Shown: in pieces, positions 20,480-38,074 of the stretch
Position numbering within the stretch: the first letter of the stretch is position 1
Layout: each line of letters starts with the position of its first letter
From: Bacteroidota bacterium
GTDB taxonomy: Bacteria; Bacteroidota; Bacteroidia; Bacteroidales; FEN-979
Assembly: GCA_026391835.1 (NCBI GenBank)
Contig: JAPLDF010000006.1
Location: 4,773-68,772 of the forward strand
DNA: 64,000 bases
Direction of reading: 5' to 3'
Notes under the pieces: model-generated
Database searches by the model: none
Told to the model about the DNA's origin: nothing
The model's input: only the letters and a program-made list of their open reading frames with translations
Program-made: the position numbers and the translations under genes

Positions 20480-20953
20480 TTAGTATGGTGTTTTGTCTGT
20501 CTTTTCAGCCCACTCCTTGAAGAGTTCTGCAGCTGTGGCGTGATTGACATGCAGGAAGTTGATTTTACGCTGTTCCGGAAGCAGGTTCAGTTCTTCGTAG
20601 ATGTGATTATCTTTAAATCCGATCGACGCCGCATCATGGCGTGTGGAACAATAGTAAACCGACCGGATGTTGGCCCAATAGATTGCCGAAAGACACATCG
20701 GGCAAGGCTCACAGGTTGCATACAGGACTGCACCCGTCAGGTCGAAGTTTGCAATATTCCGGCAGGCATCGCGGATGGCCACTATTTCGGCGTGGGCTGT
20801 GGGGTCATTTTGCGAACTTACACAGTTCCCGCCTTTCCCGATCACTTTTCCGTCCATCACAACAACGGCACCAAAAGGGCCCCCAACGTTGTTTCTTACC
20901 GAGTGAAATGCTTCACTGAAGGCTTCATTCATGTATGTTTCAACAGCTTCCAT
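20480..20953 (-). CDS. CDA-fold nucleoside/nucleobase deaminase, probably guanine deaminase of the B. subtilis GuaD type
   Basis: 157 aa with HAEIVAIRDA and CEPCPMCLSAIYWANI zinc motifs, ending in a C-terminal Tyr. It lies next to purine-catabolic genes. Confidence 0.65.
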   Translation of the reverse strand: MEAVETYMNEAFSEAFHSVRNNVGGPFGAVVVMDGKVIGKGGNCVSSQNDPTAHAEIVAIRDACRNIANFDLTGAVLYATCEPCPMCLSAIYWANIRSVYYCSTRHDAASIGFKDNHIYEELNLLPEQRKINFLHVNHATAAELFKEWAEKTDKTPY

Positions 20954-20981
20954 AAAGGATTTTCATTTGTTTGAAGAGTTA

Positions 20982-20989
20982 CAAAATTA
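20982..20989 (-). promoter_or_regulatory. Candidate Bacteroidota -7 box (TAATTTTG on the minus strand) for the deaminase gene
   Basis: Exact TAnnTTTG match 29 nt upstream of the ATG at 20953. The -33 element is not clear. Confidence 0.3.
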
Positions 20990-21075
20990 ACAGGTAAAAC
21001 GACGCAAAATACATTTTCCGGCACTAACTTCTCTAATAATTAACTTTTAGAGGGGCAATTCTCATGCATTATCTC

Positions 21076-21083
21076 TAATTTTG
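21076..21083 (+). promoter_or_regulatory. Candidate Bacteroidota -7 box (TAATTTTG) for the ygfK operon
   Basis: Exact TAnnTTTG match 35 nt upstream of GTG 21118. Confidence 0.3.
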
Positions 21084-21117
21084 GGGCAACTCATTCACCT
21101 GGAAAAAACAAGCAAAA

Positions 21118-24100
21118 GTGTCAGGAAATTTTCACCCGATAAAACTGCAGGGGCTGCTTCAGTTAACACTTGCCGAAATCAGGCAAAACAAATTCATGGG
21201 GATTCCCGGGAATTTGTTTTTTCGTCCGCAACCAACTGATAATTTTGGCTTTACAAGATATGGCCGGTACCTTGAAACACCTGTCGGCGTGGCTGCAGGT
21301 CCTCACACCCAGCTGGCACTCAACATTGTTGCCGCCTGGCTCTGCGGGGCACGGTATATTGAATTGAAGACCATCCAGACGCTTGATGAACTGGAAGTCT
21401 CAAAACCCTGCATCGACATGCAGGATGAGGGATATAACTGTGAATGGTCCCAGGAACTCAAGGTGCATGAGTCTTTTACAGAATATATGAATGCCTGGAT
21501 CATCATTCATATACTGCGCAGGGAGCTAGGCTTTCCGGAACCGTGCGGGACACTTTTCAACATGAGCGCCGGGTATAACCTTGAAGGGATCATGAACGCC
21601 AATGTTCAGTGGTTCTTTGACCGGATGCTCGATTGCAGTAAAGAGCTGATCCTTGCGAAAAATTCCATCCGTGCGATTTACCCTGCAATTGACACCATCG
21701 ATATCCCGTCGCTGATCTCGGATCACATTACCCTGAGCACCATGCATGGCTGCCCGCCTGACGAAATCGAAAAAATCGGTCTATACCTGATCAGGGAGAA
21801 GAAACTGCACACCACCATCAAGTTAAATCCAACGCTGCTCGGGGCTGAGGATCTCCGCAGAATCCTAAACACAAAGCTGGGGTTCACCGCAGTAGTACCC
21901 GACCTGGCCTTTGAACATGACCTGAAGTACCCTGATGCCCTGCAAATCCTGGCATCCCTCGGCCTTGCCGCCCGTGAAAACGGGGTAGCGTTTGGTGTGA
22001 AACTCACCAACACACTTGAAACCCTGAATAACAAAGATGTTTTTAGTCCTTCCGAGGCAATGATGTACCTGAGTGGCCGGCCCCTTCATCCCATCAGCAT
22101 CAGCCTGGCCCGCAAACTTCAAAACAGCATGAAAGGCGAACTTGATGCCTCATTTTCGGCAGGTGTGGATTGTTTCAACATCGCTGATGTGCTGGCCTGC
22201 GGAATGAAACCGGTGACCGTTTGCAGTGATTTGCTGAAGCCCGGGGGATACGGACGCCTGTACCAGTATATCGAAAACCTTCGCGCGGAGTTTGCACTGA
22301 AACAGGCCGACAGCATTGACGATTATGTGAGAAAGGCCGCCGGTTCTGCTGGCCCGGTAGTGCAGTCGGCACTTTTAAACCTGAACAACTATGCCGACCG
22401 GGTGGCAGAAAACCAGGCATATCATAAACAACTTTTATCCAATCCATCCATCAAGACTTCACGGGAACTCGGCTGGTTCGACTGCATCCATGCCCCCTGT
22501 GTTGATACCTGCCCTACAAACCAGGATATCCCCGAATACATGTATCATACTTCCCACGGGGATTTTCCGGCGGCATTTGATGCCATTTTCAGAACCAACC
22601 CATTCCCGTCTGTGACCGGGATGGTGTGCGATCATCTATGCCAGATGAAATGTACAAGGATCAATTATGATGAAGCGCTGCACATCCGGGAAATCAAAAG
22701 GTTTGTGGCTGAAACCAATCCCGGGGCGCCGGCAAAAGAGATGACACCACCCCAGGCCTCTCCTGTTCAAAGGGAGGGGATGCGGGCTGCCATCATAGGG
22801 GCAGGTCCGGCAGGCTTATCGTGCGCCTGGTTCCTGCGGAAGGCAGGCTTCGAAGTGGACCTTTTTGAACAGAAAAACCTGGCAGGCGGGATGGTTTCCG
22901 CAGCCATCCCGTCGTTCCGGCTCACATCCCAGGCCATTGAAACAGATATTGAGCGCATCCTTGCATCAGGGATCCATTTATATGACAACCATCCCGTTGA
23001 CCGTACCCGGTTTGAATCCCTGCAAAATGAATTTGATCCAATTTTCCTGGCCTCCGGGGCCCAAAAATCGGTGAAGCTCAGGATCGAAGGAGTGGACTCC
23101 GCGGGTGTGATTGATCCTCTTGAATTTTTGTTTGATGTGCGGCAAAACCTTTCAACCCTCCTCGGGCAGCATGTGGTAATCATCGGCGGCGGGAACACCG
23201 CCATGGATGCCGCACGTACTGCATACCGGATGGTTGGCCCGGGTGGCAGTGTAACCATCGTTTACCGCCGCACCATGAAAGAGATGCCGGCGGATCATGG
23301 TGAAATCGCAGCGGTACTGGAGGAAGGCATCAGCATCATGGAACTGACCAACCCCTGCAGTATCCTGTCGGCCGATGGCAGGGTTACGGGGCTTATCTGT
23401 ACCCGGAACACGCTGTCTGAAGCGACACCTGGAACCAGGCCATCCCCGGTTCCGATCCCGGGTTCTGAATTTGAAATTTCATGCGACACTATCATTCCGG
23501 CCATTGGCCAGCAACTGGCAGTCGACTTCATTGAACCGGATTTACTCAGGACCAATCAGGGAAGTTACAGGACACAAATTCCCGGACTTTACATAGGCGG
23601 TGATGCCCTGCGTGGCGCATCCACCGCCATCAATGCCATTGCCGACGGGCGGAAGGCAGCCCGGGAGATCATTGAGAATACGATCAACGTGCCATCTGAC
23701 ATTGCCCTCCAAATAACCTCATCACCTACGCATGTTCCTGTCAAAAATGTGAGCAGCCGGGCGATCAGCAATGTCAGTATCCAGGATCTGATGAAACGGA
23801 AGGCAACCAGGAAATATGGTATTCATCCGGCTGAGACAGCATTGGATCAGCGGCAAAATTTCGACCTGGTCATGTCTTCGCTTACGGCCGGGGAAGCCCG
23901 GCACGAGGCTGCGCGATGTCTTCAGTGCGATGAAATATGCAATGTCTGCGTATCGGTTTGTCCGAACCTTGCCAACTTCGGGTACGAGATTGAACCGGTA
24001 TCCTATATGCTGCAAAAGGCCATTTTGAAAGAAGACGGCACCATTGCATTCGAACCGGATAAGGTTTTTACGGCCGATCAGCAATTCCAGGTGCTGAATA

Positions 24101-24477
24101 TCCGCGATTTATGCAATGAATGTGGCAATTGTACTACATTTTGTCCATCCGGTGGCAGGCCGTTTGCCGATAAGCCCGGGGTTTCCCTTTCGGTGAAATC
24201 CCTGAACCGGGAGGGGACAGGTTTTTTACTGAGCCGTCTTGATGGAAAACAGGTCCTGATCTATAAAGAGCAGGAGAACATCCGGACACTGAGTTTAACC
24301 GATGGCAAATATCTCTATGAGACCAACCAGGTGAGGGCGGTCATCAATCTGGCTGATTTCACCCTCGTTGAAGTCAAATTCCTGACACCGTGTGTGAGGG
24401 AATTCCATTTTGAATTTGCAGCGGAGATGAGCATTGTTCTTGCCGGGGCGATGCAAATAACAATGAGCAATGAATAA
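21118..24477 (+). CDS. ygfK: YgfK-like multidomain oxidoreductase (the putative selenate reductase YgfK family): DHOD/DPD-like barrel, Fe-S, glutamate-synthase-small-subunit-like FAD/NAD(P) domain and ferredoxin-like C-terminus
   Basis: 1119 aa with ETPVGVAAGPHTQLALNIVAAWLCGARYIELKTIQ, GAGPAGLSCAWFLRKAGFEVDLFEQ, CLQCDEICNVCVSVCPN and CNECGNCTTFCPSG. GTG 21118 keeps the conserved HPIKLQGLL N-terminus as I recall it from E. coli YgfK. Confidence 0.88.
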   Translation: MSGNFHPIKLQGLLQLTLAEIRQNKFMGIPGNLFFRPQPTDNFGFTRYGRYLETPVGVAAGPHTQLALNIVAAWLCGARYIELKTIQTLDELEVSKPCIDMQDEGYNCEWSQELKVHESFTEYMNAWIIIHILRRELGFPEPCGTLFNMSAGYNLEGIMNANVQWFFDRMLDCSKELILAKNSIRAIYPAIDTIDIPSLISDHITLSTMHGCPPDEIEKIGLYLIREKKLHTTIKLNPTLLGAEDLRRILNTKLGFTAVVPDLAFEHDLKYPDALQILASLGLAARENGVAFGVKLTNTLETLNNKDVFSPSEAMMYLSGRPLHPISISLARKLQNSMKGELDASFSAGVDCFNIADVLACGMKPVTVCSDLLKPGGYGRLYQYIENLRAEFALKQADSIDDYVRKAAGSAGPVVQSALLNLNNYADRVAENQAYHKQLLSNPSIKTSRELGWFDCIHAPCVDTCPTNQDIPEYMYHTSHGDFPAAFDAIFRTNPFPSVTGMVCDHLCQMKCTRINYDEALHIREIKRFVAETNPGAPAKEMTPPQASPVQREGMRAAIIGAGPAGLSCAWFLRKAGFEVDLFEQKNLAGGMVSAAIPSFRLTSQAIETDIERILASGIHLYDNHPVDRTRFESLQNEFDPIFLASGAQKSVKLRIEGVDSAGVIDPLEFLFDVRQNLSTLLGQHVVIIGGGNTAMDAARTAYRMVGPGGSVTIVYRRTMKEMPADHGEIAAVLEEGISIMELTNPCSILSADGRVTGLICTRNTLSEATPGTRPSPVPIPGSEFEISCDTIIPAIGQQLAVDFIEPDLLRTNQGSYRTQIPGLYIGGDALRGASTAINAIADGRKAAREIIENTINVPSDIALQITSSPTHVPVKNVSSRAISNVSIQDLMKRKATRKYGIHPAETALDQRQNFDLVMSSLTAGEARHEAARCLQCDEICNVCVSVCPNLANFGYEIEPVSYMLQKAILKEDGTIAFEPDKVFTADQQFQVLNIRDLCNECGNCTTFCPSGGRPFADKPGVSLSVKSLNREGTGFLLSRLDGKQVLIYKEQENIRTLSLTDGKYLYETNQVRAVINLADFTLVEVKFLTPCVREFHFEFAAEMSIVLAGAMQITMSNE

Positions 24478-24507: not shown

Positions 24508-25980
24508 ATGATACCAATTATTAAAGATGTCGTTGATCAGACAGTATTGAACAAGGCCGTCGGCCACTACCGCGAAAAAGGAATTATCCTGCCTACTTTT
24601 GCACAGATGCAGAACCCGGACCTGATTCCCGGACGCATCAAGGACAAACTGAAAAACATCGGTTTGTGGGACCTTCATCCCCTGAATCTTTTCCGGATAA
24701 CCTGGAAAAATGAGCCAAAGGCTTCGGGCGGGTTATACGGGGCGCCAAATTTCATTGAGTTGCCCAGATCACTCACCGGTATCGACGCCCGTATCATTGT
24801 GATGCTGGGCAAATGGTTCCCAACCGGTGCGCATAAAGTTGGCGCCGCTTATGGCTGCCTGGCCCCGCGCATCATTACCGGCGGGTTTGACCCCACATAT
24901 CATAAGGCCGTATGGCCCTCAACAGGCAATTACTGCCGCGGGGGCGCCTTCGATTCCTACCTGATGGATGTCACTGCCGTGGCCATTCTGCCGGAAGAGA
25001 TGAGCCGTGAACGGTTTGCCTGGCTTGAAGAGATCGGTGCCGAGGTGATTGCCACCCCGGGATGTGAGTCGAACGTGAAGGAGATTTATGACAAATGCTG
25101 GGAAATCAAAAGGACCCGCAAGGATTGCATGGTATTCAACCAGTTCGAGGAGTTTGGAAACTCCTGCTGGCACTATGAGGTTACCGGCAACGCCATTGAA
25201 GAGGCGTTCAGGATGGCTGCCGGGAAGGATGCCAACCTGGCTGCCTATATTTCAGCCACCGGGTCGGCAGGGACCATTGCCGCCGGCGATTACCTGCGTA
25301 CAAAATTCCCGCATCTGAAGGTGGTAGCATCAGAGGCATTGCAGTGCCCGACACTCCTGCAGAACGGTTTTGGCGGCCACCGGATCGAAGGAATCGGCGA
25401 CAAACATGTGCCCTGGATCCACAATGTCCGCAATACCGATGTGGTGACGGCCATTGATGACGAGGATTGCATGCGGCTGCTGAGGCTTTTCAATGAAAAG
25501 GAAGGCCACGAATACCTCGCGGCAAACGGCGTTGACAAGGAATTGCTCCCAATGCTCGACACGATCGGCATTTCGGGTATCGGAAATATTCTTTCAGCAA
25601 TCAAAACAGCAAAACATTTTGAGTTTACCAGTGAAGATGTCATGGTGACCATTGCCACCGATTCTGCCGAAATGTACGGATCGAGGCTGGAAGAACTGAC
25701 CGCGGAACGTGGTGCCTATTCATTCCTCCAGGCAGCCCGTGACCATGAAAAATGCATGCTCGGAACCGCCCCCTCTACCATGCAGGAACTTGGATACAAC
25801 GACCGGAAAGCCATTCATAACCTGAAATACTTTACCTGGATCGAACAACAGGGGAAAGAGGTGGAAGACCTCCGGCAGTTATGGGATGACCGTCATATCT
25901 GGCCGCAAATATTCAGCCAGCCCGCACGGTGGGACGAGCTGATCAACGAATTTAATGAAAGGACAGGACTGCTGAAATAA
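24508..25980 (+). CDS. Fold-type-II PLP-dependent enzyme with a TrpB-like lysine motif; specific function unknown
   Basis: 490 aa. FPTGAHKVGAAYGCL resembles the TrpB HTGAHK PLP-lysine loop. It lies 30 nt downstream of ygfK. Confidence 0.65.
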   Translation: MIPIIKDVVDQTVLNKAVGHYREKGIILPTFAQMQNPDLIPGRIKDKLKNIGLWDLHPLNLFRITWKNEPKASGGLYGAPNFIELPRSLTGIDARIIVMLGKWFPTGAHKVGAAYGCLAPRIITGGFDPTYHKAVWPSTGNYCRGGAFDSYLMDVTAVAILPEEMSRERFAWLEEIGAEVIATPGCESNVKEIYDKCWEIKRTRKDCMVFNQFEEFGNSCWHYEVTGNAIEEAFRMAAGKDANLAAYISATGSAGTIAAGDYLRTKFPHLKVVASEALQCPTLLQNGFGGHRIEGIGDKHVPWIHNVRNTDVVTAIDDEDCMRLLRLFNEKEGHEYLAANGVDKELLPMLDTIGISGIGNILSAIKTAKHFEFTSEDVMVTIATDSAEMYGSRLEELTAERGAYSFLQAARDHEKCMLGTAPSTMQELGYNDRKAIHNLKYFTWIEQQGKEVEDLRQLWDDRHIWPQIFSQPARWDELINEFNERTGLLK

Positions 25981-26038
25981 ACACATCATCAGTTTCAGTT
26001 GGCTAAAGCCAATTGAAATAGATAAAAGACAGGCAGAT

Positions 26039-26245
26039 GGAATTTATTGCAGGCAGCTTTAACTGACTGTTACAGAATGTGCTGAAAGTACATGGAATTT
26101 ATTGCAGTCAGCTTTAACTGACTGTTACAGAATGTGCTGAAAGTACATGGAATTTATTGCAGTCAGATTTAACTGACTGTTACAGAATGTGCTGAAAGTT
26201 CATGGAATTTATTGCAGTCAGCTAAAGCTGACTGTTAAGAGGATG
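26039..26245. repeat. 55-bp tandem repeat, about 3.7 copies, each containing the palindrome CAGTCAG-N6-CTGACTG
   Basis: Units start at 26039, 26094, 26149 and 26204 and are near-identical. Diverged copies lie at about 26826-26975 and 27139-27290. Confidence 0.9.
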
Positions 26246-26286
26246 GCTAAAGAACATTGGGGCTTCAGCCCCATAAATTGAACTTT

Positions 26287-26733
26287 ATGAGCTGGGTAAG
26301 AATTTGGGTACATTTGGTCTTTTCGACAAAAAACCGTGAACCATTTCTCCATTCCGAAGAGTTGAGAAAACAATTTTTTCAGCACATCAAATCAAATGCT
26401 GAGGAAAAGCAGATTTGGCTTGATAGCATCAGTGGATACGCCGAACATGCCCATTGCCTTGTATCCCTAGGAAAAGACCAATCTGTGAGCAAGATTGCCC
26501 AATTGATTAAGGGTGAATCATCTTTCTGGGTCAATAAACATTCATTGATCAGGGACAAGTTTATCTGGCAAGATGATTATTGGGCAGTGGGTGTAAGTGA
26601 GAGCCACCTGGATAAAGTGCGGTTATATATTCACGGCCAGGAAAAACATCATGGGAGTATGACCTTTGGGGAGGAGGTAGCTGAGTTTATGAATAGATAT
26701 GGGTGGACTTTTATACAGAATATAAAAGACTGA
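26287..26733 (+). CDS. IS200/IS605-type Y1 (HUH) transposase-like protein, a probable REP-associated tyrosine transposase (RAYT)
   Basis: MSWVRIWVHLVFSTKNREPFL..., HUH motif AEHAHCLVSL and catalytic-Tyr region VRLYIHGQEKHH. About 148 aa, flanked by REP-like hairpin arrays. Confidence 0.8.
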   Translation: MSWVRIWVHLVFSTKNREPFLHSEELRKQFFQHIKSNAEEKQIWLDSISGYAEHAHCLVSLGKDQSVSKIAQLIKGESSFWVNKHSLIRDKFIWQDDYWAVGVSESHLDKVRLYIHGQEKHHGSMTFGEEVAEFMNRYGWTFIQNIKD

Positions 26734-27020
26734 TGAAACAATAAATGTGGCTAAAGCCAAATGATCAGGAGCCCCTTATAAAACAGTTGGCTAAAGCCAA
26801 CTGCAATAGATGAAATACAGACAGGTGGAATTTATTGCAGTCAGCTTTTGATGACGATTACAGAATGCACTGCAAGGATATAGAATTTATTATTGTCAGC
26901 TTTAACTGACTGTTACAGAATGTGCCGAAAGCACTTCGAATTTATTGCAGTCAGCTTTAGCTGACTGTTTAGGAGAAGGGCTGATGATAATTGGGGCTTC
27001 AGCCCCATAAATTGAACTTT

Positions 27021-27050
27021 ATGAGTTGGGTGAGAAGGTGGGTACATTTG
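27021..27050 (+). pseudogene. Remnant of a second RAYT copy: the first 10 codons are joined directly to the RAYT 3' flank
   Basis: atgagttgggtgagaaggtgggtacatttg matches 26287-26316. It is followed at once by aaacaataaatgtggctaaagcc, which follows the intact gene at 26738 onward. Confidence 0.75.
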
Positions 27051-27356
27051 AAACAATAAATGTGGCTAAAGCCAAATGATCTCGCCACACATAAAATAGT
27101 TGGCTAAAGCCAACTGCAATAGTTGAAAGACAGACAGATGGAATTTATTGCAGTCAACTTTTGATGATTGTTGCAGAATGTGCTGAAAGCACAAGGAATT
27201 TATTGCAGTCAGTTTTAACTGACTGTTACCGAATGTGCTGAAAGCACAAGGAATTTATTGCAGTCAGCTTTAGCTGACTGTTTAGGAGGTTGCTGATGAA
27301 TTTTGGGGCTTCAGCCCCATTGATGAGAAGGGATAGTCAAGTCAGAAATAAAAATT

Positions 27357-32873: not shown

Positions 32874-32881
32874 TATCTTTG
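32874..32881 (+). promoter_or_regulatory. Candidate -7 box (TATCTTTG) for ssnA-hyuA
   Basis: Exact TAnnTTTG match 22 nt upstream of ATG 32903. Confidence 0.3.
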
Positions 32882-32902
32882 GTATCTGATAGAAAAAACC
32901 CT

Positions 32903-34168
32903 ATGATATTATTAAAAAACGGCACATTCATCAACTGGCAAACACTCGAATTTACAAAGGCCGACATCCTTGTTGAGGAAGGCCCGACCGGATCGGCGAC
33001 ATTTTTCACCCCTGGTGAACACCTTGCTGGCACAACCCCTGTATTGGACTGCACCGGCAAATTCATCACCAAATCGTTTGCAAACGGGCACCATCATGTC
33101 TATTCCGCTCTTTCCCGCGGAATGCCTGCACCAAAGAAAAATCCCGGTAATTTCCTGGAAATCCTTAAGTATATCTGGTGGAACCTCGACAAGGCGCTTG
33201 ATTTGGAGATGATAAGGTCGAGTGCGCTCGTAACGGCCATGGCATGTGCCAAAAGCGGGGTTACCTTCGTGATCGATCACCATGCATCCCCGTACGCATT
33301 GGAAGGCAGCCTGGAAACCATCGCCAGGGCATTTGACGAGGTCGGTGTAGGTCACCTGCTGTGTTACGAGATCTCCGACCGCGACGGTATGGAAATCGCA
33401 CGGAAAGGACTCACCGAAACAGCTGACTACCTGTCCCGCCACCAGGGCCTGGTCGGGTTGCATGCTTCCTTTACCATTGGAAAAGAGACTTTGAACCAGG
33501 CGGTTAAAATGGCTGGCCTGAACAAATCAGGCATTCATATTCATGTGGCTGAGGATGAATCGGATGAGCAACACTGTATTGAAAATCATCATCAAAGAGT
33601 CATTGAACGGTTGTCGGATGCCGGCGTCCTGCAGTTTCCGAAGACCATCCTTGCCCATTGTCTACACCTCGACAATCACGAACGCGGGCTGGTTGAAGGT
33701 TCGCCTGCATGGGTGGTTCAGAATATGGAGAGCAACCTGAACAATTCTGTTGGATTTTTTAATTCAAAAGGACTTGGAACAAGGATCATGTTCGGTACCG
33801 ACGGCATGCACAGCGACATGCTGCGCAGCGCCAAAGCTGCTTTCTTTGCCGGGCACAATTTCGACACCATCGACTACGGTGAGACCTACCGGCGGCTCAG
33901 GAACGTGCATCATTACCTTCATTCCAACGAATTTGCCGGAGATGGCGAAAACAACCTGGTTGTCCTGGATTACGATGCGCCGACTCCTCTGTCGGCCGGT
34001 AACTTTTTCGGGCATTTCCTGTTCGGCATTGAATCAAGCCATGTGGCTCATGTGATATCCAGTGGAAAACTCATTGTATCGGGGGGCAGGGTACTTAGGG
34101 TTAATGAGCAGGAAATTCTTGAAAAATCCCACATACAGGCAATGCGGCTATGGAAGAAAATGCATTAG
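32903..34168 (+). CDS. ssnA: SsnA-like amidohydrolase (putative aminohydrolase SsnA family)
   Basis: MILLKNGTFINW..., the metal motif ANGHHHVYSAL, and HVAEDESD. It is about the size of E. coli SsnA and sits beside hyuA and xdhD homologues. Confidence 0.8.
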   Translation: MILLKNGTFINWQTLEFTKADILVEEGPTGSATFFTPGEHLAGTTPVLDCTGKFITKSFANGHHHVYSALSRGMPAPKKNPGNFLEILKYIWWNLDKALDLEMIRSSALVTAMACAKSGVTFVIDHHASPYALEGSLETIARAFDEVGVGHLLCYEISDRDGMEIARKGLTETADYLSRHQGLVGLHASFTIGKETLNQAVKMAGLNKSGIHIHVAEDESDEQHCIENHHQRVIERLSDAGVLQFPKTILAHCLHLDNHERGLVEGSPAWVVQNMESNLNNSVGFFNSKGLGTRIMFGTDGMHSDMLRSAKAAFFAGHNFDTIDYGETYRRLRNVHHYLHSNEFAGDGENNLVVLDYDAPTPLSAGNFFGHFLFGIESSHVAHVISSGKLIVSGGRVLRVNEQEILEKSHIQAMRLWKKMH

Positions 34169-35502
34169 ATAAGATCCTGATCATCAACGGCACCCTTGTC
34201 ACAGCTGAAACAAGCGTAAAAGAGGACATTGCTGTTGAAAATGGAAAAATAAAAGACTGCGGGAATTTAAACCCCGCATCTCATCCGGGCTACCGGGTGA
34301 TTGATGCTTCGGGAAAATTTATCCTTCCCGGGGGATTCGATCCGCATGTACATTTATCGCTGCCAACACCTGCCGGAAAATCGTGCGACGATTTCAGGTC
34401 GGGAAGCCTGGCTGCGCTGGCAGGTGGCACGACCTATATGATGGATTTCGTCACTCCCCGCCGCGGACAATCCATCAGGGAGGCATTGCGACTGCGAAGC
34501 GCTGAAGCTGCTGAAAGCATTGCCGGTTGCGGCTTGCACGTGGGAATCAGTGAATGGAACCCGACGGTTGCAGCAGAGATTGTCCCCTGTATTGAGCAGG
34601 ATGGCATCAGGTCGTTCAAAGCGTACCTGGCCTACCGCGAATCGATTGGAATCGGTTACGGTGAGTTACACGAACTCATGCTGATTGTTGGGTCGGCGGG
34701 CGGATTGGTCATGGTCCATTGTGAGGATGGGGAGATGATCAGCCGGTTGCAAGCGGAATTATTACAGCAGGGAAAAACGCGGGCCTGTTATCATGCCATG
34801 TCACATCCCCCGGAGGCTGAGATTCGTTCGATTGAAAAAGTTATTGAGCTGTCGGCCGTGACAAACTGCCCGGTTTACATTGTACATACATCAACCGCGA
34901 GGGGGGCCGATTTAATTGCAGCTGCCAGGAAATCCGGGATCAGGGTATTTTCCGAAACATGCCCGCACTATCTTTTACTGGATGACGCTGTGTATGATTC
35001 CGCTCTGGATGACATGAAAGTAATGCCATACATCGTGTCACCGCCCATCCGGGGCAGGTCTGATCAGCAACGGCTGTGGGAAGGGCTTTCAGATGGCACC
35101 TTTGATGTGGTGGCCACCGACCATTGTCCATTTAACCTCCATGGGCAGAAAGACCGGGGTGCCAATAATTTTACGAAAATCCCCAACGGGGCAGGCAGCA
35201 TCGAACACCGTCTGCGTTTGCTTTACACCTATGGCGTCCTGGCAAATAAAATAACCATGAACCAGTTTGTCAGCCTTGTCTCCACCCGACCGGCTGAAAT
35301 CTTCGGGCTGGGTCACCGGAAAGGGAAACTACTCCCGGGCTATGATGCCGATATCGTGATCTGGGACCCGGAATATACAGGAACCATCTCCGTAAAAAAT
35401 CACCTTGAACACTGCGATTCAGAAATTTACGAAGGCTTCCAGGTCCTTGGAGGCCCCGACACAGTTATCCTAAGCGGCAAAATCGTAAATCGTAAATCGT
35501 AA
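34150..35502 (+). CDS. hyuA: Cyclic amidohydrolase: D-hydantoinase/dihydropyrimidinase (HyuA-like)
   Basis: GGFDPHVHLSLP, SFKAYLAY (carbamylated-Lys region), MVHCEDGE and ATDHCPF. It overlaps the ssnA 3' end by 19 nt. Confidence 0.85.
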   Translation: MEENALDKILIINGTLVTAETSVKEDIAVENGKIKDCGNLNPASHPGYRVIDASGKFILPGGFDPHVHLSLPTPAGKSCDDFRSGSLAALAGGTTYMMDFVTPRRGQSIREALRLRSAEAAESIAGCGLHVGISEWNPTVAAEIVPCIEQDGIRSFKAYLAYRESIGIGYGELHELMLIVGSAGGLVMVHCEDGEMISRLQAELLQQGKTRACYHAMSHPPEAEIRSIEKVIELSAVTNCPVYIVHTSTARGADLIAAARKSGIRVFSETCPHYLLLDDAVYDSALDDMKVMPYIVSPPIRGRSDQQRLWEGLSDGTFDVVATDHCPFNLHGQKDRGANNFTKIPNGAGSIEHRLRLLYTYGVLANKITMNQFVSLVSTRPAEIFGLGHRKGKLLPGYDADIVIWDPEYTGTISVKNHLEHCDSEIYEGFQVLGGPDTVILSGKIVNRKS

Positions 35503-35544
35503 ATCGAAACTTGTCACTTGTCACTTGTCATTTGTAACTTGTCA
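35480..35544. repeat. Two adjacent heptamer arrays: (AAATCGT) x 4 at 35480-35507 and (CTTGTCA) x 5 at 35510-35544, between convergent hyuA and ygeW
   Basis: Read directly. The hyuA stop TAA at 35500-35502 lies inside the first array. The ygeW stop begins at 35546. Confidence 0.9.
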
Positions 35545-35545
35545 C

Positions 35546-36736
35546 TCACTTCACCCTCTGCCTCCCCTTCTCTTCCAAATCCCCCAGGATCCCCGCCGGA
35601 TCAGGAAACCGGTTGGTAAGCATCATTGCCGCAATGATATAGGGCTTAAAGCCCGCCTGTTTGTACAGTGGTACCCGGTAACGCTCAAAAACAGTGGCGG
35701 CAACTTCTCCGGCCACACATGAAACTCCCGAAATATCTGCCGGGAGGCAATGCATATATAAAGCCTTCCCTTCCCTGGTGAGTTTCATTTTCTCTTCGGT
35801 GCATTCCCAGTCTTTATGTTTTGCATTGTTGGCAAGACACTCTTTTTCAAGGCCTTTCAAACCATCGTGGTCATTCCTGCGGAGCAGTTCGGTGCGCCGC
35901 TGCATCACATGGAACGGGGCCCAGCTCTTGGGATAAACGATATCGGCACCCGAAAAGGCCTCTTCCATTGAATTGACCACATTGAAAGAACCACCGCTTT
36001 CACCGGCCTGTCTTCCGGCCAGTTCAACCACTTCGGGAATAAGCCCGTAACCTTCGGGGAAGGCAAGATTGACCTGCATTCCAAGCCGTGTCATCAGCCC
36101 GATGATCCCCTGGGGTACCGAAAGCGGCTTGCCATAACTGGGGGAATAGGCCCATGTCATCGCAATTTTTTTCCCTTTCAGGTTTTCAAGTGAACCGAAA
36201 ACTGTTTTCAGATGCAACAAATCGGCCATCGACTGCGTGGGATGGTCGATGTCGCATTGGAGGTTGATGATTCCCGGGCGCTGGGGCAGCACTCCGTCGG
36301 CAAAGGCCTCGTCGAGTGCGGCACCGACTTCACGCATATAGGCATTTCCTGCACCCAGGAACATGTCGTCGCGGATACCGATGATGTCGCTCAGGAACGA
36401 GATCATCGCAGAGGTTTCGCGCACGGTTTCGCCATGGGCAATCTGCGATTTGCCTTCGTCGAGATCCTGCACCGCAAGGCCAAGAAGATTGGCGGCGGAG
36501 GCAAACGAAAACCTGGTGCGCGTTGAGTTATCACGGAAATTTGAAATGGCCAGCCCTGAGTCAAAGCAACGCGGGGAGATGTTCTGGTCGCGGAGCATCT
36601 TAAGGTCTTCGGCAACAGACAGGATGGTCTCAAGGTCTTCACGTTTCTTTTCCCACGTGAGGAGGAAGTCTTTGCCGAACAGTCCGTCGGTTGAGCTGGC
36701 GGCTTTTGTAGTTATTTCTGTGTTTGGTGTGTTCAT
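35546..36736 (-). CDS. ygeW: YgeW-type knotted carbamoyltransferase
   Basis: 396 aa with NFRDNSTRTRFSF (the STRTR carbamoyl-phosphate motif), DIDHPTQSMADL and MHCLPA. Size and order match E. coli YgeW. Confidence 0.88.
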   Translation of the reverse strand: MNTPNTEITTKAASSTDGLFGKDFLLTWEKKREDLETILSVAEDLKMLRDQNISPRCFDSGLAISNFRDNSTRTRFSFASAANLLGLAVQDLDEGKSQIAHGETVRETSAMISFLSDIIGIRDDMFLGAGNAYMREVGAALDEAFADGVLPQRPGIINLQCDIDHPTQSMADLLHLKTVFGSLENLKGKKIAMTWAYSPSYGKPLSVPQGIIGLMTRLGMQVNLAFPEGYGLIPEVVELAGRQAGESGGSFNVVNSMEEAFSGADIVYPKSWAPFHVMQRRTELLRRNDHDGLKGLEKECLANNAKHKDWECTEEKMKLTREGKALYMHCLPADISGVSCVAGEVAATVFERYRVPLYKQAGFKPYIIAAMMLTNRFPDPAGILGDLEEKGRQRVK

Positions 36737-36742
36737 GGGTGT

Positions 36743-36778
36743 GTTGATGGATGGGTTGATGGATGGGTTGATGGGTTT
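36743..36778. repeat. 12-mer tandem repeat (GTTGATGGATGG) x about 2.7, starting 7 nt upstream of the ygeW start codon
   Basis: gttgatggatgg gttgatggatgg gttgatgg, read directly. The ygeW ATG occupies 36736-36734 on the minus strand. Confidence 0.85.
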
Positions 36779-36786
36779 GTATTGTT

Positions 36787-36846
36787 GGTGAAAAAGGGCG
36801 GAGGTCCTGGTGAAAAAGGGCGGAGGTCCTGGTGAAAAAGGGCGGA
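36787..36846. repeat. 22-bp tandem repeat (GGTGAAAAAGGGCGGAGGTCCT) x 2.7; the last copy merges into the ygeY terminator
   Basis: Units lie at 36787-36808, 36809-36830 and 36831-36846 (partial). Confidence 0.9.
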
Positions 36847-36859
36847 TATGAATCCGCCC
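36831..36859 (-). terminator. Rho-independent terminator of ygeY
   Basis: The minus strand reads GGGCGGAT-TCAT-ATCCGCCC followed by TTTTTCACC, 22 nt downstream of the ygeY stop. Confidence 0.7.
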
Positions 36860-36880
36860 AGACAGGGGCGGGGATGTATC

Positions 36881-38074
36881 TTACTCTGACAGGTAGTACA
36901 CCAGCGCAGTGTAGAAGGCAGATGCGGCCACCAGGTCGCTCACAGGCACCTTTTCGTTGGGGGCATGTGCCAGCACCTCATTCCCGGGGCCAAACCCGAT
37001 GCATGGGATCTTGTAGTACCCGTTGATGGTGACACCATTGGTAGAGAAGGTCCATTTGTCGGTAATCGGCTCTTTGTCGAAAAGGCCGGCAAAGGCCTCC
37101 TGCGCGCGGACAACCAGGTGATGGTCTTCTTCAATCTTCCAGGTAGGATAATACTTCTCCATGCCATAGCGAAGCCCGGTATACGCTGTTTCTTCATATT
37201 GCAGCACTTCAACCACGGCGTCCATATCCTTGATGATTTCACTTATTTCAGCTACGGCAGATTCTTTGGTCTCGCCCCAGGTAAGGCGGCGGTCGAGATG
37301 GATACGGGCATAGTCGGCCACGGCGCATAAGGAAGGGCTCCCGGAGACAAATTCCGAAACGGTCACGCTGCCTTTCCCAAGAAAATCATCGGAGGTCAAT
37401 CTTTCGTTCAGTTTTTCGATCTCCAGGCATACACGCGAGGCCATGTAGATCGCATTTTTTCCACGTTCGGGTGCTGATCCGTGTGAAGAGATGCCCTTGA
37501 AGGTGACGGCAATTTCCATCCTTCCGCGGTGGCCGCGATAGATGTTGAGATTGGTTGGTTCGGTGATGACAACAAAATCAGGAATGATCTTGTCCTCTTC
37601 AACGATATATTTCCAGCACAGGCCATCGCAATCCTCCTCGATGACGGTCCCGGTGAAATAAATCGTGAGGTCGCGGTCGAACGCAAGTTCCTTCAGGATA
37701 CGGCCGGCTGTGACAAACGCGGCAGGACCGCCTTTCTGGTCCACGGTTCCGCGGCCAAAAACAAAACCATCACGTATGTCCCCTGAAAACGGATCATCTG
37801 TCCAGTTGGCAAGGTTCCCGGTATCTACCGTATCGATATGTCCGTCGAAAGCAAGGATTTTGCTGCCGTTGCCAATACGGCCGATCACATTGCCCAGGCC
37901 ATCGGTGCGGACCTCATCGAATCCGGCTTCCACCATCTGCCGCTTCAACTCTTCGGCCATGGCTTGTTCACCGGTGCTGAGCGATTTGATTTTTACGAGT
38001 TTTGAGAGGTTCCCGGCAGTGTAATCTTTGTAAGATTCCGCCAGGGAGTTGATTTTTAAGAGAAGTTCTTCCAA
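36881..38074 (-). CDS. ygeY: YgeY-family M20 metallohydrolase (selenium metabolism-linked hydrolase family)
   Basis: 397 aa with LVKIKSLSTGEQAMAEELKRQMVEAGFDEV, GHIDTVD and VIEEDCDG. The apparent start is TTG at 38074; the first in-frame ATG would delete conserved N-terminal sequence. Confidence 0.85.
   Translation of the reverse strand: MEELLLKINSLAESYKDYTAGNLSKLVKIKSLSTGEQAMAEELKRQMVEAGFDEVRTDGLGNVIGRIGNGSKILAFDGHIDTVDTGNLANWTDDPFSGDIRDGFVFGRGTVDQKGGPAAFVTAGRILKELAFDRDLTIYFTGTVIEEDCDGLCWKYIVEEDKIIPDFVVITEPTNLNIYRGHRGRMEIAVTFKGISSHGSAPERGKNAIYMASRVCLEIEKLNERLTSDDFLGKGSVTVSEFVSGSPSLCAVADYARIHLDRRLTWGETKESAVAEISEIIKDMDAVVEVLQYEETAYTGLRYGMEKYYPTWKIEEDHHLVVRAQEAFAGLFDKEPITDKWTFSTNGVTINGYYKIPCIGFGPGNEVLAHAPNEKVPVSDLVAASAFYTALVYYLSE

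What the first reader, a model, noticed from the sequence alone, without database searches (positions are those of the whole stretch)
20480..38074. Bacteroidota variant of the ygfK-ssnA-xdhD-hyuA-ygeW-ygeY locus (selenium-dependent Mo-hydroxylase / anaerobic purine-urate catabolism), rearranged and with replaced parts
Six signature families of the E. coli ygeW...xdhD region are present. They are ygfK (21118-24477), xdhD (29808-32453), ssnA (32903-34168), hyuA (34150-35502), ygeW (35546-36736) and ygeY (36881-38074), plus a guanine-deaminase-like gene at 20480. NCBI family names tie YgeY and YgfK to selenium-dependent molybdenum hydroxylases. As I recall, 2023 studies linked this cluster in gut anaerobes to anaerobic uric acid and purine degradation, but the step-by-step chemistry remains incompletely assigned. 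Here I recognise no homologue of ygeX (diaminopropionate ammonia-lyase), yqeA (carbamate kinase), ygfM or yqeB/yqeC in the window. Three unrelated enzymes sit inside the ygfK-xdhD operon instead. This may therefore be a variant pathway with different downstream steps.
Basis: partly seen in the sequence, partly recalled or inferred. Interest (0 to 1): 0.7.

Follow-up and report, generated by a model that had tools for sequence, protein, structure and literature searches.

The report
Bacteroidales purine-degradation cluster, new PLP pair
This stretch of an environmental Bacteroidales genome encodes the recently solved oxygen-free pathway for breaking down uric acid and other purines, but the usual last enzyme (YgeX) is missing and two conserved, uncharacterised vitamin-B6 enzymes sit in the cluster instead.

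Summary
The observation largely holds. YgfK, HyuA, YgeW and YgeY pass NCBIfam's curated cut-offs at the stated coordinates. The SsnA-like gene is a best hit below cut-off. The "xdhD" is not the E. coli XdhD family. It is the FAD-less Fe-S/Mo type (TIGR03311) with the domain architecture of clostridial 2,8-dioxopurine dehydrogenase. The gene at 20480 is a B. subtilis-type guanine deaminase.

It also missed that the inserted genes number four: two fold-type-II PLP enzymes, a Y1-transposase/hairpin-repeat element and a membrane-anchored alpha/beta hydrolase.

The chemistry is no longer open. Two 2025 studies solved the pathway: urate to 2,8-dioxopurine, then on to 2,3-diaminopropionate and pyruvate.

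What is new is the variant. Across 80 related, mostly Bacteroidales loci the order YgfK-PLP1-PLP2-Mo enzyme-SsnA-HyuA / YgeW-YgeY is conserved. YgeX and carbamate kinase never appear. An unrelated metagenomic contig (L091) also has PLP1-PLP2-SsnA-YgfK beside YgeY-YgeW-YqeA, again without YgeX.

Best reading: a guanine/xanthine to urate to pyruvate route whose last step is done by the PLP1/PLP2 module. It is a new variant of a known kind, of moderate interest.

The parts
20480..20953 (-). GuaD-type (cytidine-deaminase fold) guanine deaminase, divergent from ygfK
   Evidence: Matches PDB 1WKQ/1TIY B. subtilis guanine deaminase, E = 4e-42, residues 5-155 of 157. The HAE and PCxxC zinc motifs are present, Asp115 aligns with bGD Asp114, and the protein ends in Tyr. 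The TadA model scores 75 against a cut-off of 150. Present in the same place in 23-24 related loci.
20954..21117 (.). Divergent intergenic region (probable promoters) between guaD and ygfK
   Evidence: Sequence read. TAATTTTG at 21076-21083 fits the Bacteroides -7 element TAnnTTTG; this is an inference from my own knowledge and was not tested. No Rfam family matches.
21118..24477 (+). YgfK (NAD(P)H:2,8-dioxopurine oxidoreductase, DOPOR)
   Evidence: TIGR03315, 846.4 bits against cut-off 835.3. 35% identical to E. coli YgfK over 1065 aa. Pfam domains: Fer4_20, Pyr_redox_2 and a C-terminal 4Fe-4S dicluster.
24508..25980 (+). PLP1: 490-aa CysK/beta-substituted-alanine-synthase-like PLP enzyme of an uncharacterised family
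   Evidence: PALP, 56.6 bits. CysK model 102 against cut-off 351. AF2 model pLDDT 93.8. Foldseek finds a CysK / beta-cyanoalanine synthase / CBS core, TMt 0.8-0.88. The lysine in FPTGAHK and the STGNYCRGG, GSAGT and GIGDKH motifs are conserved. Median 82% identity across 54 loci, as conserved as YgeW and YgeY.
25981..27356 (+). Hairpin-repeat element carrying an IS200/RAYT-like Y1 transposase gene (ATG 26287 to 26733), inserted in the PLP1-PLP2 spacer
   Evidence: Y1_Tnp, 80.4 bits. NF033573 54 against 55; REP_Tyr_transpos 40 against 80. 55-nt tandem hairpin units at 26037-26237, 26828-26969 and 27140-27282. A 313-nt module is duplicated, including a remnant of the gene's 5' end. The repeats occur nowhere else in the window. 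The same gene and hairpins lie in the same spacer in L003, L007, L008, L014 and L072.
27357..28727 (+). PLP2: threonine-synthase-like PLP enzyme with an N-terminal zinc ribbon and a hypervariable repeat linker. Not a threonine synthase.
   Evidence: PALP, 214 bits. NF006050 201.7 against 303; TIGR00260 163.3 against 167.1. The four solved ThrCs have NPxR[IL]EG where PLP2 has NPLTIEG, so the conserved Arg is Thr here and non-Arg in 53 of 62 orthologues that match the motif. A zinc ribbon is present in 62 of 62. A 24-nt tandem repeat lies at 27639-27740.
28750..29811 (+). Alpha/beta hydrolase (S33-like) with a predicted N-terminal membrane anchor. A lineage-specific insertion, probably not a pathway enzyme.
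   Evidence: Abhydrolase_1, 98.6 bits. TIGR01250 91 against 168. GQSWG nucleophile motif and a hydrophobic N-terminus after Met28 of the ORF that starts at 28669. Found in only 4 of 80 related loci, plus the window.
29808..32453 (+). Fe-S/Mo hydroxylase of the XdhAC type (candidate 2,8-dioxopurine dehydrogenase), with no FAD domain
   Evidence: TIGR03311, 816.2 against 830.45; TIGR03313 (EcXdhD family) 182.5 against 1101.9. Pfam: Fer2, Fer2_2, Ald_Xan_dh_C, MoCoBD_1 and MoCoBD_2 only. This is the architecture described for C. sporogenes XdhAC. EcXdhD Glu606 lies in an insertion absent here.
32879..34168 (+). SsnA-like amidohydrolase (probable start at 32903)
   Evidence: NF005540, 360 against 444; TIGR03314, 319.8 against 455.5. 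31% identical to EcSsnA over 450 aa. Syntenic in 56 related loci.
34150..35502 (+). HyuA (D-hydantoinase/dihydropyrimidinase)
   Evidence: TIGR02033, 463.1 against 393.25. 37% identical to EcHyuA.
35546..36736 (-). YgeW knotted carbamoyltransferase
   Evidence: NF005538, 690.9 against 453. 70% identical to EcYgeW.
36881..38074 (-). YgeY M20 ureido-group hydrolase
   Evidence: NF009555, 520.2 against 321. 51% identical to EcYgeY.
54808..57120 (-). Canonical xanthine dehydrogenase Mo-binding subunit (XdhB type)
   Evidence: TIGR02965, 1029.4 against 849.5. In many relatives this operon lies directly next to ygeY.
57158..58633 (-). Xanthine dehydrogenase small subunit (2Fe-2S plus FAD)
   Evidence: TIGR02963, 525.8 against 467.
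58645..59439 (-). XdhC-family Mo-cofactor insertion factor
   Evidence: TIGR02964, 146.6 against 161.6; NF045664, 208.8 against 350. 31% identical to residues 3-254 of EcYqeB.
59473..60063 (-). MocA-like Mo-cofactor cytidylyltransferase
   Evidence: TIGR03310, 83.1 against 186.45. 27% identical to EcMocA.

Best explanation
The locus encodes an anaerobic purine-to-pyruvate route in a free-living Bacteroidales bacterium.

Proposed steps (all functions are inferred from homology and synteny; none was tested):
1. Guanine is deaminated to xanthine by the GuaD-type deaminase (20480).
2. Xanthine is oxidised to urate by the canonical XDH (54808-58633).
3. Urate is dehydroxylated to 2,8-dioxopurine by the FAD-less Fe-S/Mo enzyme (29808). 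Its electron donor is unknown and is probably not NAD(P)H.
4. YgfK reduces the ring and SsnA opens it.
5. HyuA opens the second ring, giving 2,3-diureidopropionate.
6. YgeW removes one ureido group by phosphorolysis, yielding carbamoyl phosphate. YgeY hydrolyses the other, giving 2,3-diaminopropionate.

This follows the pathway shown in E. coli and clostridia in 2025.

The usual terminal enzyme YgeX (diaminopropionate ammonia-lyase) is absent. Its job is proposed to be done by the conserved, tightly linked PLP1/PLP2 pair: release of the C3 unit as pyruvate plus ammonia by PLP-dependent beta-elimination from diaminopropionate, or possibly from beta-ureidoalanine. PLP1 is CysK-like and PLP2 is threonine-synthase-like with the conserved ThrC Arg replaced. 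The division of labour between the two is not resolved. They could form a heteromer, handle the D and L isomers separately, or catalyse consecutive steps.

No carbamate kinase is linked to the cluster, so ATP gain from carbamoyl phosphate depends on a gene elsewhere in the genome or is forgone.

Sub-confidences: the locus is a reductive urate/purine cluster, about 0.85. PLP1/PLP2 belong to the pathway, about 0.8. They perform the YgeX step, about 0.55.
For: - Family scores and identities to the E. coli proteins.
- The pathway and enzyme roles come from PMC12507026 and 10.1101/2025.04.24.650524.
- Synteny: CDA(-) | YgfK PLP1 PLP2 Mo-enzyme SsnA HyuA | YgeW(-) YgeY(-) [XdhB...] is conserved in related loci down to about 50% YgfK identity. 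Eighteen loci hold all eight core genes. PLP2 is present in 63-64 of 80 loci and PLP1 in 54.
- No YgeX, YqeA, YqeC or purine permease lies within +-10 kb in any of the 80 loci.
- PLP1 and PLP2 are separated by -4 to +30 nt in about 20 loci.
- Independent recurrence: contig L091 has GuaD-YqeA-YgeW-YgeY | PLP1 (61% identity)-PLP2-SsnA-YgfK and no YgeX hit even at E < 1. L092 has PLP2..PLP1..HyuA.
- PLP1-family proteins pair with ThrC-like proteins in two further contexts, L088 and L090.
- PLP1 has the fold and motifs of beta-substituted-alanine enzymes. Diaminopropionate and beta-ureidoalanine are beta-substituted alanines.
- PLP2 has Thr where all four solved ThrCs have Arg in NPxR[IL]EG. From my own knowledge this is the phosphate-binding Arg160, so PLP2 is unlikely to be a threonine synthase.
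- GuaD assignment.
Against: - There is no biochemical or genetic evidence for any gene here.
- SsnA and the Mo enzyme score below NCBIfam cut-offs.
- A true YgeX, a carbamate kinase, SelD and YqeB/YqeC could lie elsewhere in the genome. Only 64 kb was visible, and the 117.6-kb source contig could not be fetched.
- Why two PLP enzymes are needed for a step that YgeX does alone is unexplained.
- CysK-like enzymes typically do beta-replacement rather than net elimination.
- PLP1-family members also occur in contexts with no purine genes: an F420/CoA-transferase context in L085 and a MoaA-like context in L083.
- The L091 contig shows no Mo enzyme or HyuA within its 16 kb.
Confidence: 0.68

Rival explanations
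1. PLP1/PLP2 are cofactor-maturation enzymes, not catabolic ones. They would release sulfide or selenide from (seleno)cysteine to build the sulfido/selenido ligand of the Mo hydroxylase. This would stand in for the YqeB/YqeC selenium-cofactor system, which is missing from the cluster.
For: - PLP2 directly precedes the Mo enzyme, often with overlapping stop and start, in most loci. This is the most frequently observed adjacency.
- L024 has YgeY-PLP2-Mo enzyme without PLP1 or YgfK nearby.
- PLP1's structural neighbours include H2S-producing CysK-like enzymes, Fn1220 and Fn1055.
- One PLP1 homologue lies next to a MoaA-like radical-SAM gene in L083.
- No YqeB, YqeC or SelD is found in the window or in the related loci.
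Against: - In L091 the pair sits with SsnA and YgfK, and no Mo enzyme is on the contig.
- L090 has the pair with no Mo enzyme within 10 kb.
- The complementary distribution with YgeX is explained more simply by replacement of the lyase.
- From my own knowledge, known Mo-cofactor sulfuration uses fold-type-I NifS-like desulfurases together with XdhC. An XdhC gene is present at 58645.
Confidence: 0.1
2. The PLP pair does not make pyruvate. Instead it salvages the C3 amino acid by beta-replacement, for example diaminopropionate or beta-ureidoalanine plus sulfide giving cysteine, or plus water giving serine. The pathway would then end in an amino acid rather than in central carbon metabolism.
For: - PLP1's closest structural and sequence relatives are beta-replacement enzymes: O-acetylserine sulfhydrylase, beta-cyanoalanine synthase, CBS and O-ureidoserine synthase.
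- No carbamate kinase is linked to the cluster, which is compatible with an assimilatory rather than an energy-yielding role.
Against: - Two PLP enzymes are still unexplained.
- L091 links the pair to a carbamate kinase, which points to a catabolic, ATP-yielding setting.
- In all characterised versions the pathway ends in pyruvate.
Confidence: 0.12
3. The two PLP genes are ordinary threonine synthase and cysteine synthase genes that happen to lie in the cluster, as public annotations name them. YgeX is encoded elsewhere.
For: NCBI and JGI name the relatives 'threonine synthase' and 'cysteine synthase'. PLP2 scores 163.3 against a cut-off of 167.1 for TIGR00260.
Against: - PLP1 scores 102 against 351 for CysK and has about 180 extra conserved residues.
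- PLP2 has Thr where all four solved ThrCs have Arg.
- The pair is kept inside the operon across deep divergence and in a second lineage.
- PLP1 is as conserved as YgeW and YgeY.
Confidence: 0.04
4. The cluster degrades a different N-heterocycle, not urate via 2,8-dioxopurine. The Mo enzyme, YgfK and SsnA homologues would have diverged substrate specificity.
For: The Mo enzyme and SsnA fall below family cut-offs. They are only 25% and 31% identical to the E. coli proteins.
Against: - YgeW is 70% and YgeY 51% identical to the E. coli enzymes, which implies the same ureido-propionate intermediates.
- YgfK passes its equivalog cut-off.
- A guanine deaminase and a canonical XDH are linked in the window and in relatives.
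- The C. difficile enzyme accepted as XdhD is likewise only about 26% identical to EcXdhD.
Confidence: 0.06

Closest known systems
E. coli ygeW-ygeX-ygeY-hyuA-yqeA ... ygfK-ssnA-ygfM-xdhD reductive uric-acid cluster (Li et al. 2025, PMC12507026)
   Same: YgfK, SsnA-like, HyuA, YgeW and YgeY are present with 31-70% identity. Purine-feeding genes are linked, as in E. coli. The implied intermediates are the same.
   Different: There is no YgeX, YqeA, YgfM, YqeB, YqeC or permease in the cluster. The Mo enzyme is not the XdhD family and lacks the insertion carrying Glu606. The guanine deaminase is the small CDA-fold type, not the amidohydrolase GuaD. Two extra conserved PLP enzymes are present. The gene order differs.
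Clostridium sporogenes / C. difficile 2,8-dioxopurine pathway cluster (Liu et al. 2025, bioRxiv 10.1101/2025.04.24.650524)
   Same: The Fe-S/Mo enzyme has no FAD subunit (XdhAC architecture, TIGR03311-like). As in C. sporogenes, carbamate kinase is not in the cluster. A separate XDH feeds urate into the pathway.
   Different: The clostridial clusters keep YgeX and carry the selenium-cofactor trait (YqeB/YqeC/SelD). Here these were not found in the window or in +-10 kb of 80 relatives. The phylum and the habitat (anoxic lakes, sediments, caves) differ from the gut Bacillota described.
YgeX, 2,3-diaminopropionate ammonia-lyase (PDB 4D9G family)
   Same: Same Pfam superfamily (PALP, fold type II) as PLP1 and PLP2. 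It occupies the same logical position, as the only PLP step of the pathway.
   Different: Similarity is remote: PLP2 27% over 127 aa, PLP1 33% over 46 aa. The lengths and extra domains differ, and there are two proteins instead of one.
CysK / beta-substituted alanine synthases and threonine synthase (PRK08197-type, with zinc ribbon)
   Same: PLP1 has the CysK fold with the Schiff-base Lys, Asn loop and phosphate loop. PLP2 is 1e-42 to 1e-46 from solved threonine synthases and has the zinc ribbon of PRK08197-type proteins.
   Different: PLP1 has conserved N- and C-terminal extensions (TM-score 0.55 normalised to the query) and no characterised close relative. PLP2 has Thr in place of the conserved ThrC Arg and scores below the family cut-offs.
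Bacillus subtilis guanine deaminase GuaD (1WKQ)
   Same: Full-length match, zinc ligands, Asp114 equivalent and C-terminal Tyr.
   Different: No difference was detected at the sequence level. Activity was not tested.

Membership tests
Reductive uric-acid / 2,8-dioxopurine pathway gene cluster | YgfK (DOPOR) orthologue | tested here: met
   TIGR03315, 846.4 against cut-off 835.3.
Reductive uric-acid / 2,8-dioxopurine pathway gene cluster | Mo hydroxylase of the XdhD or XdhAC (DOPDH) type next to the reductase | tested here: inconclusive
   TIGR03311, 816.2 against 830.45, just below cut-off. The domain architecture equals XdhAC. No diagnostic residue for 6-dehydroxylation of urate was available to test; EcXdhD Glu606 lies in an insertion absent here.
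Reductive uric-acid / 2,8-dioxopurine pathway gene cluster | SsnA ring-opening amidohydrolase (IPR017700/TIGR03314) | tested here: inconclusive
   Best hit, but 360 against 444 and 319.8 against 455.5. Syntenic with YgfK and HyuA in 56 related loci.
Reductive uric-acid / 2,8-dioxopurine pathway gene cluster | HyuA, YgeW and YgeY | tested here: met
   All three are above their curated cut-offs.
Reductive uric-acid / 2,8-dioxopurine pathway gene cluster | YgeX diaminopropionate ammonia-lyase | tested here: not met
   No orthologue in the window or in 80 related loci. Only remote PALP paralogues are present.
Reductive uric-acid / 2,8-dioxopurine pathway gene cluster | Carbamate kinase YqeA (in the cluster in 33 of 39 gut strains, so not obligatory) | tested here: not met
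   No hit in the window or in the related loci. The rest of the genome was not visible.
Reductive uric-acid / 2,8-dioxopurine pathway gene cluster | Anaerobic urate consumption and induction by purines | not testable with these tools
   Needs culture work or transcriptomics.
Selenium-dependent molybdenum hydroxylase trait | YqeB (TIGR03309), YqeC (TIGR03172) and SelD in the genome | tested here: inconclusive
   None is in the 64-kb window or in +-10 kb of relatives. Only a 264-aa XdhC-family protein and MocA are present. A whole genome was not available.
Threonine synthase (TIGR00260 / NF006050) | Score above cut-off, and the Arg conserved in the NPxR[IL]EG motif of solved ThrCs (phosphate-binding Arg160 of T. 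thermophilus ThrC, from my own knowledge) | tested here: not met
   163.3 against 167.1 and 201.7 against 303. The Arg is replaced by Thr: 53 of 62 orthologues have NP[LF]T..EGKKT, and L091 has NPYLMEG.
Cysteine synthase CysK/CysM | Score above cut-off and a length of about 300-330 aa | tested here: not met
   102.2 against 350.95. The protein is 490 aa with conserved extensions.
B. subtilis-type guanine deaminase | CDA fold with H/C/C zinc site, Asp114 equivalent and C-terminal Tyr | tested here: met
Canonical xanthine dehydrogenase (XdhA small / XdhB large) | Both subunits above equivalog cut-offs | tested here: met
   525.8 against 467 and 1029.4 against 849.5.
IS200/IS605 TnpA or REP-associated tyrosine transposase | Y1 HUH fold, flanking hairpin repeats, and dispersed REP copies in the genome (for a RAYT) | tested here: inconclusive
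   Pfam Y1_Tnp, 80.4 against 23, is met. NF033573 scores 54 against 55 and the RAYT model 40 against 80. Hairpin arrays flank the gene, but no copy lies elsewhere in the 64-kb window.

The most novel reading that the evidence does not exclude
PLP1 and PLP2 form a previously uncharacterised two-protein PLP system. PLP1 founds a family of about 350 clusters at 50% identity with no studied member. The pair would be an alternative terminal module of the anaerobic urate pathway in at least two bacterial lineages. Its chemistry may differ from YgeX, for example direct elimination of urea from beta-ureidoalanine, stereospecific handling of D-diaminopropionate, or channelling between the two enzymes. 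The pathway would thereby extend to free-living Bacteroidota, a phylum reported as lacking urate consumption among human gut isolates.
Probability: 0.5. Interest if true: 0.62.

Novelty: new variant of a known kind. Interest (0 to 1): 0.52.

Why it matters
The anaerobic urate pathway was worked out only in 2025. It is being pursued for gout and hyperuricaemia probiotics and for understanding nitrogen recycling in guts.

Published surveys marked clusters by SsnA (IPR017700) and by the broad Pfam PF00291 as a stand-in for YgeX. They listed no Bacteroidota, and an earlier screen of gut isolates found urate use 'notably absent in Bacteroidetes'.

The variant described here has three consequences.
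- The pathway is common in anoxic-water and sediment Bacteroidales.
- Marker-based surveys probably miss it, because its SsnA scores below the family cut-off.
- The terminal step has a non-orthologous solution involving two uncharacterised enzymes. This gives a concrete, cheap biochemical experiment and corrects the widespread 'threonine synthase' and 'cysteine synthase' annotations of these genes.

Tried and rejected
- I tried to extend beyond the window by looking up window proteins on their source contig. All three look-ups found nothing on record, so the window's own contig appears to be unavailable. SelD, carbamate kinase and YgeX elsewhere in the genome therefore could not be checked.
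- The EcXdhD Glu606 marker proposed by Li et al. was uninformative. It lies in an insertion that this enzyme lacks.
- An Rfam scan of the whole window found no riboswitch or other family.
- The supplementary files held for Liu et al. 2025 contain no Bacteroidota entries, but only two files were searchable.
- The contexts of PLP1 homologues P0155 and P0181 were too short or uninformative.
- P0151 sits next to UacX-like and XdhAC-like genes (L089). I first took this as strong support, but it lacks the Schiff-base lysine (GSYQVG). I treat it only as weak support.
- Small extra ORFs in relatives are unrelated hitch-hikers, not pathway genes: 23S-rRNA-IVP four-helix proteins, a BRO-N protein, a CoA-binding protein and a 214-aa unknown.
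- I considered the alpha/beta hydrolase as a RutD-like aminoacrylate hydrolase (33.6 bits against a cut-off of 238.5). I rejected this because of its membrane anchor and its presence in only 4 of 80 related loci plus the window.

Full report
**What is in the window.** The region 20480-38074 carries eleven long ORFs plus a small Y1-transposase gene. NCBIfam and Pfam scans give the following.

| Coordinates | Assignment | Best model, score against cut-off |
|---|---|---|
| 20480-20953 (-) | cytidine-deaminase-fold deaminase | TadA 75 / 150 |
| 21118-24477 | YgfK | TIGR03315, 846.4 / 835.3 |
| 24508-25980 | PLP1, 490-aa PALP protein, only weakly CysK-like | CysK 102 / 351 |
| 26257-26733 | Y1 transposase (real start probably ATG 26287) | Pfam Y1_Tnp 80.4 / 23 |
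| 27357-28727 | PLP2, threonine-synthase-like PALP protein | 201.7 / 303; 163.3 / 167.1 |
| 28669-29811 | alpha/beta hydrolase | TIGR01250, 91 / 168 |
| 29808-32453 | 881-aa 2Fe-2S plus Mo-cofactor protein | TIGR03311, 816.2 / 830.45 |
| 32879-34168 | SsnA-like | 360 / 444 |
| 34150-35502 | HyuA | 463.1 / 393.25 |
| 35546-36736 (-) | YgeW | 690.9 / 453 |
| 36881-38074 (-) | YgeY | 520.2 / 321 |

The Mo enzyme scores only 182.5 against 1101.9 for the E. coli XdhD family. Identities to the E. coli K-12 proteins fetched are YgeW 70%, YgeY 51%, HyuA 37%, YgfK 35%, SsnA 31% and XdhD 25%. The Bacteroidota call is sound. GldA/F/G follow directly (38164-41508), T9SS sorting domains precede the region, and the closest relatives are Bacteroidales MAGs.

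- tblastn with the E. coli proteins and NCBIfam show a second, canonical xanthine dehydrogenase operon on the minus strand. It comprises the Mo subunit at 54808-57120 (TIGR02965, 1029 against 849.5), the Fe-S/FAD subunit at 57158-58633 (TIGR02963, 526 against 467), an XdhC-family factor at 58645-59439 and a MocA-like gene at 59473-60063.
- In many relatives this operon lies immediately after ygeY. It belongs functionally to the same system.
- In the window it is separated from the cluster by the gld genes, two hybrid kinases and an RND pump.
- The deaminase at 20480 matches B. subtilis guanine deaminase over its full length (1WKQ, E = 4e-42). The Asp114 equivalent and the C-terminal Tyr are present.

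**State of knowledge.** The pathway is no longer 'incompletely assigned'. Two 2025 studies established these steps:
1. Urate is converted to 2,8-dioxopurine by XdhD in E. coli or by the FAD-less XdhAC (DOPDH) in C. sporogenes.
2. YgfK reduces the ring.
3. SsnA opens the first ring and HyuA opens the second, giving 2,3-diureidopropionate.
4. YgeW performs phosphorolysis. With carbamate kinase YqeA this yields ATP.
5. YgeY hydrolyses the remaining ureido group, giving 2,3-diaminopropionate.
6. YgeX converts diaminopropionate to pyruvate plus ammonia.

The window's Mo enzyme has exactly the XdhAC architecture: two 2Fe-2S domains plus Mo-cofactor domains and no FAD domain. Li et al. note that the accepted C. 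difficile XdhD is also only about 26% identical to EcXdhD. None of the papers read mentions Bacteroidota. The 2022 preprint states that urate consumption was 'notably absent in Bacteroidetes' among 206 gut isolates.

**Comparative genomics.**
- A scan of one genome per GTDB species with the Mo enzyme returned 226 relatives. The best 80 loci were kept. They are mostly MAGs labelled Bacteroidales or Bacteroidota, and their isolate names point to lakes, sediments, a sulfidic cave, permafrost and deep subsurface sites.
- Mapping the window's proteins onto them shows a conserved order: guanine deaminase(-) | YgfK PLP1 PLP2 Mo-enzyme SsnA HyuA | YgeW(-) YgeY(-), often followed by the XDH operon. Eighteen loci hold all eight core genes. 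Most others are truncated contigs.
- PLP2 is found in 63-64 of 80 loci and PLP1 in 54.
- PLP1 is among the most conserved proteins of the cluster. Median identities are PLP1 82%, YgeW 85%, YgeY 85%, Mo enzyme 71.5%, SsnA 68.5%, YgfK 63%, HyuA 61% and PLP2 60%.
- PLP1 and PLP2 are separated by -4 to +30 nt in about 20 loci.
- None of the 80 loci contains YgeX, YqeA, YqeC, a full YqeB or a purine permease within +-10 kb.
- The alpha/beta hydrolase occurs in only 4 of the 80 related loci, plus the window. Its likely start (Met at about 28750) is followed by a hydrophobic anchor. I regard it as a lineage-specific passenger.

**What PLP1 and PLP2 are.**

PLP1:
- It founds a distinct family. An exhaustive search gives 351 representative clusters at E <= 1e-30, with full-length members of 460-500 aa down to about 31% identity.
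- The conserved motifs are FPTGAHK (Schiff-base Lys), STGNYCRGG (Asn loop), GSAGT (phosphate loop), GIGDKH, and a conserved C-terminal helical region.
- Its AlphaFold model is confident: pLDDT 93.8, pTM 0.94.
- Its core superposes on O-acetylserine sulfhydrylases, beta-cyanoalanine synthase, CBS and O-ureidoserine synthase. TM-score is 0.8-0.88 on the target but only about 0.55 on the query, because of the extensions. These are enzymes that act on beta-substituted alanines.

PLP2:
- It is 1e-42 to 1e-46 from solved threonine synthases.
- Where all four solved ThrCs have NPxR[IL]EG it has NPLTIEG. From my own knowledge that Arg is the phosphate-binding Arg160 of T. thermophilus ThrC. The position is non-Arg in 53 of 62 orthologues that match the motif.
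- All 62 orthologues carry an N-terminal CxxC...CxxC ribbon.

Both proteins are only remotely related to YgeX. Public records call them 'cysteine synthase' and 'threonine synthase'. Those names fail the membership tests.

**Independent recurrence.**
- A metagenome scan seeded with a distant PLP1 homologue found contig L091 (16.2 kb, GC 0.43).
- Its gene order is amidohydrolase-type GuaD(-), YqeA carbamate kinase(-), YgeW(-), YgeY(-) | PLP1, PLP2, SsnA, YgfK.
- Identities to E. coli are YqeA 64.5%, YgeW 67%, YgeY 61%, SsnA 34% and YgfK 43%. Identities to the window are PLP1 61% and PLP2 36%.
- L091 PLP1 keeps all the motifs. L091 PLP2 has the zinc ribbon and NPYLMEG, again without the Arg.
- There is no YgeX hit even at E < 1.
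- Its YgeW, YgeY and YgfK are closer to E. coli than the window's are. I take this as a different lineage that made the same substitution.
- L092 shows PLP2..PLP1..HyuA.
- PLP1-family genes are also paired with ThrC-like genes in L088 (overlapping) and L090 (divergent).

The pair is therefore a module, and it is repeatedly embedded in the urate cluster exactly where YgeX is lacking.

**Mechanism proposed.** Guanine goes to xanthine, then urate, then 2,8-dioxopurine, then through ring reduction and two ring openings to 2,3-diureidopropionate, then diaminopropionate as in the published pathway. PLP1/PLP2 would then convert the beta-substituted alanine to pyruvate and ammonia. What is shown is family membership, synteny, the complementary distribution with YgeX, and the loss of the conserved ThrC Arg in PLP2. 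What is inferred is every catalytic activity, the substrate of each PLP enzyme, the electron donor of the Mo enzyme and the fate of carbamoyl phosphate.

Rivals are a role in sulfur or selenium delivery to the Mo cofactor, assimilatory beta-replacement, a different heterocyclic substrate, and mere co-location. They are listed with their evidence in the rival-explanations section. The first two cannot be excluded.

**Caveats.**
- Only 64 kb of the genome was visible, and the source contig (117.6 kb) could not be fetched. Absence of YgeX, carbamate kinase, SelD and YqeB/YqeC is therefore shown for the neighbourhoods, not for the genomes.
- SsnA and the Mo enzyme are below curated cut-offs.
- PLP1 homologues also occur in non-purine contexts (L083, L085).
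- One homologue next to UacX-like and XdhAC-like genes has lost the catalytic lysine (L089).

**Verdict.** It is a new variant of a known kind. It is notable for the phylum and habitat, for probably escaping the published marker-based surveys, and for a concrete candidate pair of uncharacterised PLP enzymes at the terminal step.

Noticed in passing
window 25981-27356 (also L003, L007, L008, L014, L072): A Y1 (IS200/RAYT-like) transposase gene (ATG 26287, 148 aa, HAH and Tyr motifs intact) sits in the PLP1-PLP2 spacer. It lies between three copies of a hairpin module: GTTGGCTAAAGCCAAC, 55-nt tandem CAGTCAGCTTTAACTGACTG units and GGGGCTTCAGCCCC. One module carries a deleted remnant of the gene's 5' end. 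The same gene (74-78% aa identity) and the same hairpins occupy the same spacer in five related MAGs. This suggests a long-resident or site-specific element rather than a recent insertion. No copy of the repeats lies elsewhere in the 64 kb.
   Followed up: partly
window 27639-27740 (inside PLP2): A 24-nt (8-nt sub-unit GGACAGGC) tandem repeat encodes a (T)GGQADxR-type linker between the zinc ribbon and the catalytic domain. This linker is hypervariable in length and sequence among orthologues of 413-460 aa, and close relatives have similar repeats.
   Followed up: partly
window 36726-36846 and 35480-35546: The ygeY-ygeW spacer is almost entirely tandem repeats: a 12-mer GGTGTGTTGATG x4.6 and a perfect 22-mer TGGTGAAAAAGGGCGGAGGTCC x2.8. 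The convergent hyuA/ygeW junction has two heptamer arrays (AAATCGT, ACTTGTC). Function unknown.
   Followed up: no
window 49133-53524 (-): A 1463-aa CusA/CzcA-type RND permease whose C-terminal ~330 residues match a TolC-family outer-membrane factor (TIGR01844, E = 1.8e-9). This is an apparent permease/outer-membrane-factor fusion, next to an RND adaptor at 47936-49120.
   Followed up: no
window 54065-54811 (-): CrcB fluoride channel and DUF190 genes lie directly downstream of the xanthine dehydrogenase large subunit.
   Followed up: no
window 22-7225: A leucine/isovalerate-type catabolic set: a carboxyltransferase, an enoyl-CoA hydratase, a biotin carboxylase with BCCP, two HMG-CoA-lyase-like genes in tandem and an acyl-CoA dehydrogenase.
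   Followed up: no
L089 4291-9524: In an unrelated metagenomic contig a UacX-like (DHO_dh plus Fer4) gene and an XdhAC-like gene are followed by a PLP1-family protein. Its Schiff-base lysine is replaced by Gln (GSYQVG), so it may be a pseudo-enzyme. A class-I aminotransferase gene comes next.
   Followed up: partly
L085 / L086: A PLP1-family gene (44% identity) sits between an F420-biosynthesis operon (CofC, CofD, CofGH, F420 ligase) and CoA-transferase plus luciferase-family (F420-dependent) oxidoreductase genes. This recalls the F420-type variant that Li et al. noted in Chloroflexota.
   Followed up: no
related loci L016-L018, L025, L029, L035-L037, L071: In many relatives the canonical XDH operon directly abuts ygeY. 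In the window it lies about 17 kb away, behind gldAFG, two hybrid histidine kinases and the RND pump. This suggests an insertion or rearrangement in this lineage.
   Followed up: partly
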